A stretch of 64,000 nt of DNA from contig QPGO01000144.1 in the NCBI GenBank assembly GCA_008632985.1, forward strand, positions 124,001-188,000, given 5' to 3'. Positions 8,501-41,480 of the stretch are shown here, piece after piece (position 1 is the stretch's first letter; each line of letters starts with the position of its first letter). The translations under genes and the position numbers were made by a program. Below the pieces are notes generated by a model. That model was given only the letters and a program-made list of their open reading frames with translations, was not told where the DNA came from and did no database searches. This DNA is from Psammoneis japonica. Its lineage: Eukaryota.

Positions 8501-11500
8501 CAGGCAATCTCCAGACCACCCTCTAAAAAAAACACAATGTTGGGGGGCAACTCCCAACACAGCAGATGGACGACCCTCAGGAATCATTGCAGATTGCAGC
8601 GTTGCAGCTTTGCAGAGTTGGAAAAAGCAGCACATGTGGGTTTGGATCTCTTTGTTGTTGCTGCTTTCAGCCATTGCAGCAACAAACAATGGACAGCAAC
8701 CATGAATGATTGTTCCAACAAGGTGCCCTTTGATTGCAACAACAAAAAAAGGACAATGATGATGACATGTGCAATCACCATGGGGCAGGAACAATGCTTT
8801 TCAGAAGAAGAAGAAGAAGAAGAAGCAGCTGCAGCAACAGCAACAGCAACCACAACAGCAACCAACAGCACAACAACAACAACAGCCACCACACAGCACA
8901 CCAACAACAACACCAACAACAACCCAAGCATTGTGCCCATGCACTGCAACCCACATGCCAAAGCATTTTGGCACTGCTGTGTCTTTTGTGGGTCACAAAA
9001 AAGGCAGCTGCTCATCCGGCTTCTGGCTCATGGCTGTCCACACTGCCAAGCACCTCTCATTTTTTGCTGGCTTGCAGCACTTGCTCTTGTCTTGTTGCAC
9101 TGCACATGTGCCTGTCCTTGCTCTTTGCTTCTTTTTGCAGCACAACAACAAGACACACACCAACATTTTCCAGCCATCTTTTTTTTTAATTTTCCACTTG
9201 TTTGGTGAGTTTTTGTGTTCTTGTTGGTTGGTCAGGGCAAACTGCCTGGCACACAGTGAGAAGTTTGCAAGCAACATCACCCAGCGGTGTTGGGTGAATG
9301 ACAGATGCAGGTGGTGAGGGTGGAACTGAGTCTCACAAGAACACAGAGGCAGAAAAAGGGGAGGTTTGGGGGGTGGTTTGGCAAGCTGGGGCCACAGCTT
9401 GATGGAATGGCAGGCAAGCTGCTTGTCAGCTGAGGATTTGGCAACTGCAAAGCCGAGGCTCTGGAGGCCCCACTTGTGACAGCATGGCAGTGTGCAGTGT
9501 GTGGGCAAGGCCAAAGCAGGCAGTTGAGGTGCTCTTCCATGCAGCAGCAGCAGCAGTGTGGGGAAAATGCCCAAGAGCAGCAGCTTGGTGCAGGTGCAGC
9601 CAGGAGCTGGGTGTCAGGGAAGGAGGACTTGGATGCCCAGGGAGGACCGGGGGGGGGGGGGGGGGGCAGAGAGGGGTCATTTTTGAACAACTCCAAACAT
9701 TGGTTTTTTGGGGCAAAACAGCCTGGAGCTCCCAGGCACCATCAAAAGCAAATGGGGCAAGGTGGATGTCAGCTTGGCTCATGGAAGCTCAACTCATGCC
9801 AAGTCTTGAAATTTCCATTTTGAATTTCCACTTGGTTTCTTGCACAGTGTGTCTTTGCAAAAAGGCTGAGGGCAGGGGAAGAAAAGCCAGAGCTGGAAGT
9901 GGAGGAGGTTTGGGAATGGCAGCATCAATGCAAGGCCACAGGGTGTCCCAGAGGGAAATCAGAAGCAGCAGCAGAAGAGGCAGGGGCAAATTGGGTGCCT
10001 GGGTGCATCAGCGAGAGGTGTTTGACATTTGAGGGGTGAGCAGCAGGGGACAAGGTTCGCGTGATGGGTGGCAGCACTCCCACGGAGTGCTGCACTTTTC
10101 AGTCTGGCCAGCAAATTTTTCTGTGCAATTTCTGCATTCCATGCAGAATTCCATGCAGCCTTGGCATTTGCAAAAGGAGCCCTCCACCCATGATGGCATC
10201 CTGCCCCACTGATGCTCACCATGGCACCGGCTGCATTGTCGTTTGTTGTGCTGAACAGGATTTAGTCAACTTCCACACTTTGAGAGGAAAGTCAATTGAT
10301 GGGCGTCATGAAGAAGGCCTCTTTCATTCTTTCTGGGGCCCTGTTGCCTCACTCAAGACTGTCAAGTGTGCCAACAATTTGAAACATATGCAGAAGATGC
10401 AACAAATCATTGATGACCGGGGTTTGCATGAAAGCAACAAATCACAGGAGCAAAATGCAATTGCTGAGGGAGAGAATCTTTAAATGTTAAAGCCAAGCTG
10501 ACTTTGCAGAAGCAGCAGCCATCAAATTAGCTGGCGCAGATCCCCACCTTTCGTCTTCATCGAGTGTCACAATGGAATGGGCTGCCACTTGGAGCAGGTG
10601 TGTTTTGCCACCCTTGTTGAAATGACAAGATTTCACAATCACAATCACCCAAGGCTCCAAGACAATTGTTTTCAAAAGGCTGGGAATCTCCAAAATGAAG
10701 CAGACAAGACAAACAGGCAGCAGTGAGAACTCTTGAAGAACCAACAAGAACGGATCGCCCCAAGCACCAATCAGATGCTTCTTGGCATTGCTTCCAAAAG
10801 CACTCACTGAAAGCAGACACAGTCAGAAATGAAATTTCTCACAAAACATTTCTCATTGTCAACAACCAGCTCCACACCAAAAAGGAAGAAAGGCTGTCGT
10901 GCACTGCTGTCTTTAAAGAACTCAGCAGGGAAACCCCCTGCAGGAAACGATTTGGTCAGTTTGGAATCCCTTGGAATGGATGCACATGCTGTTGAAACCT
11001 TCAAAAGGAATGAGGCAAAGAATGCGAAGGAGCACCTTGTCATGAATCCAGAATGAGCCCGAGTCTCTCAGAGCACTTGCATTGGTGAGCGTCATTCCCA
11101 GACCTTCCACATGCAGTGACAGAAATTGAAGATGACTGAGCAGAAGAAAAACAATGGCTCCTTGCTGCTGTCTAAACAGCAGATGAGTCTCCATGCAGAG
11201 ACCATTGCAGGAGCTGAAAGACTGGTGTTGTTGACGTTGATGCTGCTGTTGTTGTTCTTGTGAGCCATGTGGCTCAAAAGCAAACTGCAACACATGACAC
11301 GCGTGGAACCAGGTGCACACATGATCATGTGTGACAAACTAAAATCTTGTTCAAATCCTGTCATGCAGAGGCAACAAAGAGAAGCCTTGTGTCAACTTGA
11401 AAGGCTTCAGTTTTGTTTCCCTGTGAAGCGTTGTTGAAAAATTGAAAGACAAGGCAAAATGAGGGGCAAGCACAGATGCCATGAGAGTGAAAGAAGTCAA

Positions 11501-12460
11501 AGGAAACAACCAGTTGAAAAACAAAGGATGAGCACACCATCAGACAATGTGACAACCACAAAAAATGTGCAACGAGAGGTTGACAATTTGCCTCACACTC
11601 TGTCACACATTGCCCGTGCTTGTGTCACAATGAGAAAATGCTGTGCACTGGAGCACAGACCAAAAAAGAAGGCAAAACAAAAGAAACACAGTCAGAGGAT
11701 GACAACAAAACTGAGCCATCACACCACTTCAGTCGACGACACATTTTGCAACATGATGGCACTTGTCAAAACTGCCCCAATGCACGCACATGACATGGAC
11801 AAATGAAATGAATCTCATGCACAACTCACCCCACAGAAAGATGCACGACGACAGTGCAGACAACACACCAGCACCATGGTGTTTGCGAGAAAAAGCAACG
11901 TGCAAAGGCTGGCACAAAAAAGTGATCTGCAAGTTGTTCTCCACTTTTTGATTTTTGTCAACTGGCCAGATTGGCTCAGTGCTGAAAAATGCAATGATCC
12001 ATGGGAGGTCTTTCTCTTCCTCTTTTTCCCGCACCAATTGCAGACCTCCCAAGCTGGGAGTGGGGTGGCAGGCGAGTCAGCACAGATGCCAGACAGCGGG
12101 AACAAAAAGATCATCTTGGATGATGCCAGAGGAGAGGGCAGACTTGTGGCCAAGGGATCAAGCTGGCGTCCCTGCACAAGCCAGCGCTGCCGCAGCACAT
12201 GTGGCAGCAGCAGGAGAAGGGGCTGTGTTGACCGGGTTTTGTGAGGTGCAGCTTGCGCTGAAGCACGAAGTGGAGCAAGCTGGGCTGTGGCGCCAAAGGA
12301 CGAGGTGCAGTTGCGGCTCCGGAGCTCTGAAAGTGAGTGTGGTGTGTGGGAGAGGTTGTGCACAAGCTGCAGTTTCTGTTCAAAAACACACAATGGCATG
12401 TTGATGACGCATGGCACCAGAGGAATGTGTTTTTGTGAAGCTGGGTGTGGTTCTTCCACT
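5560..12460. repeat. TpA/CpG-depleted block of degenerate repeats and gene fragments
   Basis: Almost no TA and few CG over ~7 kb, and the ORFs are Cys/His/Gln-rich and Tyr-free. Segments ~9820-10070, ~12060-12170 and ~12320-12440 recur inverted at ~35260-35530 and ~29200-29330. Confidence 0.75.
8545..9060 (+). pseudogene. Hypermutated 5' fragment (promoter plus N-terminus) of the FG-GAP-like TM gene family
   Basis: 8702 ATGAATGATTGTTCCAACAAGGTGCCC aligns to intact ATGAATAATCGTTCCAATAAGGCACCC (26358, minus). TGTAATCGTCGT->TGCAATCACCAT. The upstream gtgggtttggatctctttgttgttgc also matches the intact 5' region. Confidence 0.85.
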
Positions 12461-40262: not shown

Positions 40263-40559
40263 GTTGGAGGCTACCGAAGTTTTCCTTCGGGTATTTGCGT
40301 TGAGCATGCATAAACGGAACAGGATCCACAGTAGTGTTGCATATCACCCCTTGCTGGGGCAGGTTGCAGTACTTGTACACTGCTTTTGTGCCTAGAGTAT
40401 AACTAATACATGCATTTGGAGTTGTATTTTGTTAGCTTTCCATCAACAAGAGCGGCAGCTTCAACAGATCCGAGAAGAACTCTATTTCTGCCATTGTAAA
40501 CCACGTCTAGATTCCAGAGCGTTTATGTCGCTCTTTGGGCAATGCAAATTTGTTACAGA

Positions 40560-41480
40560 GAGAACAACAAACAACAACAGGATTTCATTCCAGCGCATGC
40601 AAGACAAAGCGTTGCTGTTCCCCAACTTGCGGACACGGTTTTGCCCGCTGCAGCATTTTCTTTTCGTTGCGAATGCTGTCTCTGCTGCTTTCATCAGTGG
40701 CAACCCCGTCCAGAGGTGAATGCCATGGTCATGCGGTGTCGACGGCGGCAATGGCTGAGGAGAAGCTTCATGGTGCTTTTTGCATGACAAACATCTGCAG
40801 TGGTCCTAGCGGCAGTCTCGTTTGTTGTCACCATTTGGTGAGGAGACCAAAACCAAGGCCAACAAGAATTACAGTGGCTTGCTCAATTCTCCAAAAGTGT
40901 TGCTTCTGCTGCAGAAAAGGCTGGCTTGCATGCAACCAATTGTTGGCTGGTCCCAATGCAACTAGAGTCAAATTCCTGCAGTGCTTCATTTAAATGGAAG
41001 CACAGCAACAGCAGTGCAAATCCAAGAAGAATTTTCCCGCTCTGTTCACCAACATGACTGCACTTCTGCAGCACTTGTGGCAGCAGGATGGGCAACAGTG
41101 CACAACGTTCTCTTGCGTACAATCAGCAGCAAGCCCCACGCCTTGCTCACCTCACAGCTTCCAAATGACAGATCATTGCCAAGCCTGATTTTTTGCCATT
41201 TGCACTGCTTTGACATGCATCAATTGCAAGAGCGTTGCTGCTCACAGACAAGGAAACTGACAAACCAAAGAAACCATTGTCAAATTCACCAAACATGACA
41301 AAAACTTGTCTGGTGTTCTCCAGTCCATTGGCATCACACAAATTGCTTGAAATTGCCAGGACTTGTTTGGCGCTGCTCAGCAAGATGGATGTGCCAATGA
41401 AATTGCCTCAATTGCACTCAAGAGACTGTCCAAGTTGGGTCCATGCAGACATGCTGCTTGGAACATGCCGGGCAATGCGC
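40560..41480 (-). pseudogene. Hypermutated duplicate of 43430-44570 (3' end and downstream of the FG-GAP gene at 44212-46059)
   Basis: 41215-41290 aligns to 44280-44357 (gatatgcacc->gacatgcatc; gtgtacaacg->gtgcacaacg; tagtagc->cagcagc). 40575-40770 aligns to 43441-43632. Confidence 0.8.

What the first reader, a model, noticed from the sequence alone, without database searches (positions are those of the whole stretch)
8545..41480. Host-gene duplicates are hit too, but close intact paralogs are spared
Seen: dead copies of host genes (8545-9060; 40560-41480) carry the TA/CG->TG/CA signature. The highly similar protease pair (3295/22087), FG-GAP pair (15887/24418) and lectin pair (55689/58289) keep normal Tyr and TA content, as do the donor loci. 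Established: RIP mutates both partners of a duplication. Inference: targeting here is asymmetric and probably follows silencing or TE context rather than homologous pairing, although purifying selection could also explain the intact copies.
Basis: partly seen in the sequence, partly recalled or inferred. Interest (0 to 1): 0.7.

Follow-up and report, generated by a model that had tools for sequence, protein, structure and literature searches.

The report
Place, not homology, directs TpA mutator
In this diatom DNA a mutation process that turns TA into TG or CA has wrecked two dead gene copies lying in transposon-filled blocks but left their source genes, close working gene pairs and most near-identical young repeats alone, so it seems to act on silenced neighbourhoods rather than on duplicated sequence as fungal RIP does.

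Summary
Confirmed. Both dead copies are one-sidedly hit: 10 of 11 and 17 of 20 donor TA steps became TG/CA, none the other way.

Added controls separate the explanations. Thirteen copies of a young non-coding 1.88-kb element (96-100% alike) lost 0 to 64 of about 100 TA; the worst-hit copy fades from a retrotransposon block towards a host gene. A dead Nudix copy in gene-rich DNA is untouched. So neither homology nor gene death suffices; place plus time does.

Limits: silencing itself was not measured; the lectin pair (72%) is too distant to test RIP; two 'intact' copies carry frameshifts in the assembly; one FG-GAP subfamily elsewhere shows mild loss. Closest known: TpA hypermutation of viral inserts in Bigelowiella (one preprint). 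This scan has noted the same process many times on other DNA of this genome.

The parts
8545..9030 (+). Dead copy 1: promoter, 5' UTR and first part of an FG-GAP gene; TA and CG almost fully converted; closer to the 24418 gene (22 versus 11 of 37 discriminating columns)
5558..12473 (.). TA/CG-depleted block that holds dead copy 1 (TA o/e 0.04, CG o/e 0.16); contains dispersed repeats at about 10075-12070
   Evidence: (73 other matches in the genome)
40560..41458 (-). Dead copy 2: direct tandem copy of 43433-44571 (non-coding spacer plus FG-GAP 3' end); TA nearly gone, CG loss stronger at the right end (15 of 21) than at the left (5 of 13, with 4 reverse)
41590..41840 (.). Degenerate dispersed repeat next to dead copy 2, in the same small depleted block 40555-42142
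   Evidence: (14 other places)
43433..44571 (-). Donor of dead copy 2, unhit; its non-coding 779 bases keep 35 TA (53.1 expected)
44212..46077 (-). FG-GAP repeat gene (621-aa frame), donor; synonymous T before A 33/82
3310..5423 (+). Trypsin-like protease A, one intron 4457-4531, frameshift near 4790 in the assembly; unhit
22087..23844 (-). Trypsin-like protease B; 92.3% to A over 1466 bases; dS 0.146, dN/dS 0.20; unhit
15887..17841 (+). FG-GAP gene A; one G fewer than gene B near 17705; unhit
24418..26361 (-). FG-GAP gene B; 84.5% to A over 2073 bases; dS 0.44, dN/dS 0.21; unhit
55689..57767 (-). Beta-trefoil lectin-domain gene A (Pfam match below the curated cut-off); unhit
58289..60409 (+). 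Beta-trefoil lectin-domain gene B; 71-73% to A, too distant to test RIP
49353..49569 (-). 217-base fragment of lectin gene A (92%) outside any depleted block; not clearly hit (4 of 11 versus 2 of 8)
13881..15760 (.). Young 1.88-kb element with terminal inverted repeats and a 4-base target duplication, no long frame; this copy keeps all 100 TA; serves as the neutral repeat control
26918..27312 (.). Unhit copy of a ~395-base repeat; its partner at 1163-1464 lost 14 of 18 TA, 1 of 17 CG, with no transversion
30019..33904 (+). Two transposon-like frames inside a depleted block; positive control (synonymous T before A 11/146; homolog Tyr columns often read His/Cys)

Best explanation
A region-limited mutator converts A:T to G:C at TpA on both strands inside transposon-rich blocks. 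It accumulates over time, spreads in cis into whatever lies in or beside the block, and fades towards working genes. A slower CpG-to-TpG/CpA decay follows in the same blocks. Host-gene duplicates are hit when they lie in such a block; donors and close paralogs escape because they lie outside. Shown: direction, dinucleotide specificity, both strands, one-sidedness, dependence on place, gradient, TA before CG. Inferred: that the blocks are silenced, CG-methylated chromatin; that CG decay is 5mC deamination; that the TA change is adenine deamination by a TadA/ADAT-type enzyme recruited to that chromatin.
For: One-sided conversion in both dead copies. Synonymous TpA normal in paralogs: 247/656 versus 144/436, p 0.12, context odds ratio 0.37 in both, 0.10 in island frames; 13 close paralogs 313/960 versus 70 no-paralog frames 1232/3588, p 0.49. 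Young element: TA losses 0,0,0,0,0,1,1,1,2,3,8,14,64; among the four copies with 3-5 private other changes: 0, 8, 14, 64. Worst copy L044: 30 TG and 34 CA; gradient 25/28, 22/30, 10/17, 7/24, rho -0.49, p 3e-7, high towards a block with an RVT_2 frame and low towards a peptidase M6 gene; only 5 of 104 CG changed. Dead Nudix copy C144:104626-105303 (inserted stop and frameshift, 87% over 836 bases) keeps 34 TA like its donor. A dead FG-GAP gene at C144:87050-88516 is cut by a block edge and keeps Tyr only in the part outside. All 8 hit copies in the 609-kb census have a 600-base flank with TA o/e of 0.11 or less. Diatom TEs are CG-methylated islands with H3K9/H3K27 marks (PMC9998398, passages).
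Against: No methylation, small-RNA, histone or raw RNA data, so 'silenced' is not measured. Very young copies inside blocks are barely hit (L039: 2 of 100, flanks 0.15 and 0.05), and TA loss rises with the age proxy (rho 0.55, p 0.053). Eight close FG-GAP frames show less synonymous TpA (175/606, p 0.008), driven by a related subfamily on contig C2, so some leak into intact frames is possible. In the protease and FG-GAP pairs, transitions at synonymous Y before A are 20/123 versus 15/185 elsewhere (p 0.04; with the lectins 29/171 versus 34/260, p 0.27). Flanks of hit copies may include unaligned parts of the same copy. Only one securely dead unhit copy was found. The deaminases found look like ordinary housekeeping ones.
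Confidence: 0.7

Rival explanations
1. Repeat-guided silencing in trans: small RNAs or another homology sensor mark any repeated sequence, transcription of working genes removes or blocks the mark, and the mutator follows the mark. Homology starts the process but expression decides who is hit.
For: Even the nine youngest element copies carry 8 TA changes against 6 other private changes over about seven times more sites, roughly ten-fold over background (computed). Both dead copies are duplications. Every depleted block tested holds repeats.
Against: The dead Nudix copy and the lectin fragment are duplicates and are not hit. The window's element copy has 3 private changes and no TA loss. The gradient in L044 points to a cis source. 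In Bigelowiella the main target is single-copy.
Confidence: 0.17
2. All copies are exposed, and purifying selection removes hit alleles of working genes whole, so survivors look clean even at synonymous sites.
For: Intact pairs are under purifying selection (dN/dS 0.20-0.23). A dense burst would carry many Tyr-to-His/Cys changes, so a hit allele would be purged with its synonymous changes. Mild synonymous loss in one FG-GAP subfamily. Selection may well shape where block borders survive.
Against: Hits come in small doses too (1, 2, 3, 8, 14), which would erode synonymous sites over dS 0.15-0.44, and do not. The non-coding part of donor 2 is unhit while the copy converted 10 of its 11 aligned TA. 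Non-coding element copies and a dead Nudix copy are unhit.
Confidence: 0.09
3. A RIP-like process that pairs duplicates and mutates both partners, with another base specificity.
For: Targets are mostly repeats; diatoms have DNMT4 enzymes that may group with RID (PMC9998398); both partners are hit in repeat pairs that both lie in blocks.
Against: Linked pairs well over the RIP thresholds (92% over 1466, 85% over 2073 bases) are unhit; donors are unhit; five of 13 near-identical 1.88-kb copies have no TA loss; close paralogs are common here (13 of 99 frames), whereas RIP constrains them (PMC12543289).
Confidence: 0.03
4. Assembly or sequencing artefact.
For: The assembly shows single-base frameshifts in two genes, and contigs of run X1 differ from it by many indels in the block.
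Against: Changes are dinucleotide-specific, on both strands, graded along a copy; contigs of run X1 cover the block with only about 1-2% other letters.
Confidence: 0.01

Closest known systems
TpA hypermutation of integrated NCLDV and virophage DNA in Bigelowiella natans (bioRxiv 10.64898/2026.01.13.699255; read parts 1-3 of 5, abstract to start of methods; supplements closed)
   Same: A:T to G:C only at TpA, on both strands; local; uneven among lines or copies; does not need a duplicate (their main target is single-copy); TA-poor, CA/TG-rich clusters.
   Different: Here a diatom; targets are transposon blocks and host-gene copies; about half of the sampled DNA is affected (45-60%); a gradient towards genes and an added CpG decay are seen. 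The rate is inferred from copies (about 250-fold), not measured. The parts read do not test paralogs or donors.
Repeat-induced point mutation (RIP) of ascomycetes (PMC2621366, PMC10294615, PMC12543289; passages)
   Same: Dense transitions at one dinucleotide in repeated DNA; dead copies; can leak into neighbouring DNA.
   Different: RIP is C:G to T:A, mostly at CpA, creates TpA and hits both copies above ~80% identity and 400 bases. Here TpA is destroyed, one copy is hit, and close pairs survive.
CpG decay on CG-methylated transposon islands; diatom DNMT5 methylation (PMC9998398; passages)
   Same: CG to TG/CA loss restricted to transposon-rich islands in an otherwise normal genome.
   Different: Explains only the slower CG half; it cannot remove TpA.

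Membership tests
Fungal RIP | C:G to T:A transitions, mostly CpA to TpA | tested here: not met
   TA is lost, CA/TG gained; L044 has 64 TA changes and 5 CG changes
Fungal RIP | Both copies of a duplication are mutated | tested here: not met
   17 of 20 versus 0 of 1 in dead copy 2; 10 of 11 in dead copy 1 with both genes keeping TA
Fungal RIP | Duplications over ~400 bases and ~80% identity are targets | tested here: not met
   92% over 1466 and 85% over 2073 bases unhit; five of 13 near-identical 1.88-kb copies with no TA loss
Fungal RIP | Acts before meiosis and needs RID | not testable with these tools
   needs crosses and knock-outs; 27 DNA-methylase matches were listed but not classified
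Bigelowiella-type TpA hypermutation | A:T to G:C restricted to TpA, both strands | tested here: met
   L044: 30 TG and 34 CA of 99 TA, 3 other private changes; 1163/27012 pair 14 of 18
Bigelowiella-type TpA hypermutation | Local, with rates orders of magnitude over background | tested here: met
   about 0.5 per base at TA versus about 0.002 elsewhere in L044, roughly 250-fold (computed); an inference from copies, not a measured rate
Bigelowiella-type TpA hypermutation | Targets sequence of viral or other foreign origin | tested here: inconclusive
   targets seen are repeats, a retrotransposon block and host-gene copies; no viral insert was looked for
Bigelowiella-type TpA hypermutation | Ongoing, seen as new mutations in some lines | not testable with these tools
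   indirect only: 7 of 11 listed transition events between run X1 and the window in 5602-6794 are of the TA/CG/TG/CA class (40 of 179 rows shown)
Bigelowiella-type TpA hypermutation | Caused by an ADAT2-like DNA adenine deaminase (proposed, not shown there) | tested here: inconclusive
   9 PF00383 matches, among them TadA-like and ADAT2-like frames (names recalled from motifs); presence is expected in any eukaryote
5mC-driven CpG decay | CG to TG/CA in repeats, slower clock | tested here: met
   5 of 104 in young L044, 22 of 39 and 9 of 12 in the older dead copies
5mC-driven CpG decay | The affected CGs are methylated | not testable with these tools
   no bisulfite or nanopore data

The most novel reading that the evidence does not exclude
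A chromatin-guided DNA adenine deaminase defence shared by diatoms and chlorarachniophytes: silent chromatin recruits an enzyme that edits TpA, spreads in cis over 1-2 kb, stops at active genes, and so destroys transposons and stray gene copies without the cost RIP puts on gene duplication.
Probability: 0.4. Interest if true: 0.85.

Novelty: new variant of a known kind. Interest (0 to 1): 0.6.

Why it matters
The one published report of TpA hypermutation leaves open how targets are chosen. These natural controls give a testable rule: place and time, not homology or loss of function. A defence by mutation that spares close paralogs would explain how a genome can have half its DNA purged of TA and still grow gene families by tandem duplication, which RIP fungi largely cannot. 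The 13-copy element gives ready-made loci (unhit, lightly hit, graded) for methylation, small-RNA and mutation-accumulation tests. It also warns annotators that long Tyr-free frames in such blocks are mutated relics.

Tried and rejected
Expression test: no RNA holder was listed. Run X2, labelled as a guessed DNA run, has contigs that skip GT..AG introns, but it gave no cover on the proteases or the block 5558-12473 apart from one repeat; lack of cover is no evidence. The frameshifts could not be placed in the read tables: an X1 contig over 4538-5271 has one gap whose place is not listed, and no listed piece covers 17705. Distance-to-block test on synonymous TpA in 99 frames: no trend (rho 0.02, p 0.86; nearest 300 bases odds ratio 0.23, interval 0.14-0.41). 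The low odds ratio of FG-GAP genes (0.21) mostly reflects high T at other third positions; their T before A is 354/1083 against 1232/3588. Branch-specific counts in the C2 FG-GAP cluster were too few (12-14 TA sites each). C2:173083/180584 was rejected as a clean dead control because both copies are broken. Age alone was rejected as the explanation (0 versus 64 at three private changes each). Pfam, Atlas and homolog searches did not name the island frame 31295-33901 (no Pfam match; Atlas DUF7869 and Cc8L18.2-like at 0.93-0.94; four unnamed homologs). The deaminase search gave no unusual candidate. Paper searches for a diatom report of TpA loss returned only the Bigelowiella preprint as relevant; subscription papers are not in the library. 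The census covers 609 kb (0.7% of the genome); a fourth region was not obtained.
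Full report
Setting. The window is G000:C144:124001-188000 of a 91.4-Mb assembly. The named best matches of its ribosomal L15 protein are diatoms. A two-state model of TA density splits it into seven depleted blocks (TA o/e 0.00-0.10) and gene-rich stretches (0.59-0.72; one 538-base stretch 0.33). In three larger samples 45-60% of the DNA is depleted.

The dead copies. 8545-9060 holds no TA (31.6 expected) and 3 CG (29.5 expected). It copies the promoter and 5' part of the FG-GAP pair, and is closer to the 24418 gene. 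Of sites shared by both genes, 10 of 11 TA and 9 of 12 CG read TG/CA, against 35 changes in 179 other columns. A protein search of the genome with this N-terminal part found only the two genes and one weak match. 40560-41458 is a direct tandem copy of 43433-44571, its only match in the genome. 17 of 20 donor TA are converted, 0 of 1 the other way; CG 22 of 39 against 4 of 19. Two thirds of it copies non-coding DNA; there 10 of 11 aligned TA are converted in the copy while the donor keeps them, which protein selection cannot explain. Both copies lie beside dispersed repeats.

The intact pairs. Identities are 92.3% over 1466 bases, 84.5% over 2073, and 71-73%. RIP needs about 80% and 400 bases and hits both copies (PMC2621366, passages), so only the first two pairs are informative. 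All three evolve under purifying selection (dN/dS 0.20-0.23). TA versus TG/CA differences are symmetric. Protease 3310 and FG-GAP 15887 each have a frameshift in the assembly, which I could not confirm or dismiss.

A T at codon position 3 before an A can become C without changing the protein. Seven paralogs (six plus the donor) have 247 of 656, eight genes without a paralog in the window 144 of 436 (p 0.12), two island frames 11 of 146; NTA codons are 111/318 against 70/278. Extended to 99 frames in 609 kb: 13 close paralogs 313/960, 70 frames without a match in the sample 1232/3588 (p 0.49 on residuals). 'No paralog' means none in the sample. Against this: eight close FG-GAP frames have 175/606 (p 0.008), driven by five related genes on C2 (0.11-0.28); the window's pair is at the median (0.37, 0.36 against 0.35). 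Synonymous transitions before A are slightly more frequent in the two close pairs (20/123 against 15/185, p 0.04; not with the lectins, p 0.27). A weak leak is therefore possible, far below the block rate.

A neutral repeat control. Depth of run X1 pointed to a multi-copy element at 13881-15760. It has terminal inverted repeats, a 4-base target duplication and no long frame. The genome search scored 40 of 337 candidates and gave 47 matches, 30 as loci. Twelve other copies differ by 1-5 transversions; I left out L045 (37 transversions), thirteen older-subfamily copies and three loci of the neighbouring 1.17-kb element. TA losses in the 13 young copies are 0,0,0,0,0,1,1,1,2,3,8,14,64 (chi2 521, 12 df). 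Age counts: nine copies with 0-2 private other changes have 0-3 losses. But the four with 3-5 have 0, 8, 14 and 64. In L044 the loss falls from 25/28 to 7/24 along the element (rho -0.49, p 3e-7), from the side of a block holding an RVT_2 frame to the side of a peptidase M6 gene. Both strands are hit (30 TG, 34 CA) and only 5 of 104 CG changed, so TA goes first and CG later. From these counts the TA rate is roughly 250-fold over background. The protease pair is about 35 times older by dS per branch and shows no such loss.

Dead but unhit. A Nudix copy at C144:104626-105303 has an inserted stop and a frameshift, is 87% identical to its donor over 836 bases, lies in gene-rich DNA and keeps 34 TA like the donor. 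A dead FG-GAP gene at C144:87050-88516 is crossed by a block edge and keeps Tyr only outside it. The census gave 19 copy loci outside long frames; I dropped two internal repeats of one gene and the intact last exon of protease B, and merged two pieces of one copy. Of the 15 left, 8 lie in blocks and are hit, each with a flank at TA o/e 0.11 or less; 1 is intermediate; 6 lie outside and show no one-sided loss. Only the Nudix copy among those six is securely dead, and flanks may include unaligned parts of the copy.

Mechanism. Shown: direction, context, both strands, one-sidedness, dependence on place and time, gradient. Inferred: the blocks are the CG-methylated, H3K9/H3K27-marked transposon islands known from other diatoms (PMC9998398, passages); CG decay is 5mC deamination; TA loss is adenine deamination, as proposed but not shown for Bigelowiella. 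The genome has TadA-like and ADAT2-like frames (names recalled from motifs) and 27 methylase matches, none decisive. Repeat-guided silencing in trans may start the blocks, and selection may keep their borders off genes; neither is excluded.

Comparison and novelty. Not RIP: three defining features were tested and failed. It works like the TpA hypermutation of Bigelowiella viral inserts (bioRxiv 10.64898/2026.01.13.699255, parts 1-3 of 5 read; supplements closed and may bear on host-gene targets), whose main target is single-copy. RIP can leak into neighbouring DNA (PMC10294615, passages) and constrains gene duplication (PMC12543289, passages); the first resembles the gradient here, the second does not fit. 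Four searches found no diatom report in the held library. I found the preprint by my own search before opening the scan's notes, which record the same process and one-sided pairs many times in this genome; no note matched the 1.88-kb element. Verdict: real, a new variant of a recently reported kind; this finding adds the targeting rule. Interest 0.6.

Noticed in passing
window 12534-15803: A 3.26-kb nested insertion about 80 bases upstream of the FG-GAP A start: two young terminal-repeat elements (12706-13873 with two more copies at 99.5% and one at 88%; 13881-15760) inside a short inverted-repeat unit. The sequence at 12490-12533 matches the promoter of FG-GAP B, so the depleted block 5558-12473 ends right at the original promoter.
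   Followed up: partly
window 13881-15760: Contigs of run X2 skip three GT..AG introns here (14218-14294, 14633-14737, 15006-15094), yet the spliced form has no long frame: a spliced, apparently non-coding transcript of a young element family.
   Followed up: partly
window 12706-13873: The 1.17-kb element carries an ankyrin-like piece (recalled motif; no Pfam match for the one frame tested); an X2 contig covers 13028-13741. Possibly a captured host fragment.
   Followed up: no
window 4790 and 17705: Frameshifts in protease A and FG-GAP A relative to their paralogs; real or assembly errors.
   Followed up: partly
window 19636-20296: An X2 contig skips 659 bases with GT..AG ends, joining an upstream exon to the radical-SAM (KamA-like, recalled) frame; another X2 contig lies inside the skipped part.
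   Followed up: no
window 49252-49349 and 55449-55549: A ~100-base TA-rich, palindrome-like stretch lies downstream of both the lectin gene and its fragment and keeps its TA steps.
   Followed up: no
window 26918-27312 and relatives on C144: A ~395-base repeat family with copies from unhit (24-29 TA) to 70-80% converted and almost no transversions; two unhit copies sit between depleted blocks.
   Followed up: partly
L042-L044, L055-L057: Flank preference of the TA change, read on the strand of the mutated A: highest for ATAC, TTAC, TTAT (0.35-0.46), lowest for CTAA, GTAG, ATAG, GTAT (0.09-0.12).
   Followed up: no
window 6418-6422: Two CA steps read TG in run X1: the same ancestral TA or CG resolved on opposite strands in two haplotypes or strains.
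   Followed up: no
G000:C2:165101-251268: A cluster of FG-GAP genes, five with low synonymous TpA (0.11-0.28): possible low-dose exposure of intact frames.
   Followed up: partly
window 33400-33904: The end of the island frame 31262-33904 keeps Tyr (7 of its 8 Tyr lie after residue 680) while homolog Tyr columns upstream often read His/Cys.
   Followed up: no
L125 and L126: A dCMP deaminase-like frame occurs with identical protein on contigs C41 and C317: a recent duplication or an uncollapsed haplotype.
   Followed up: no
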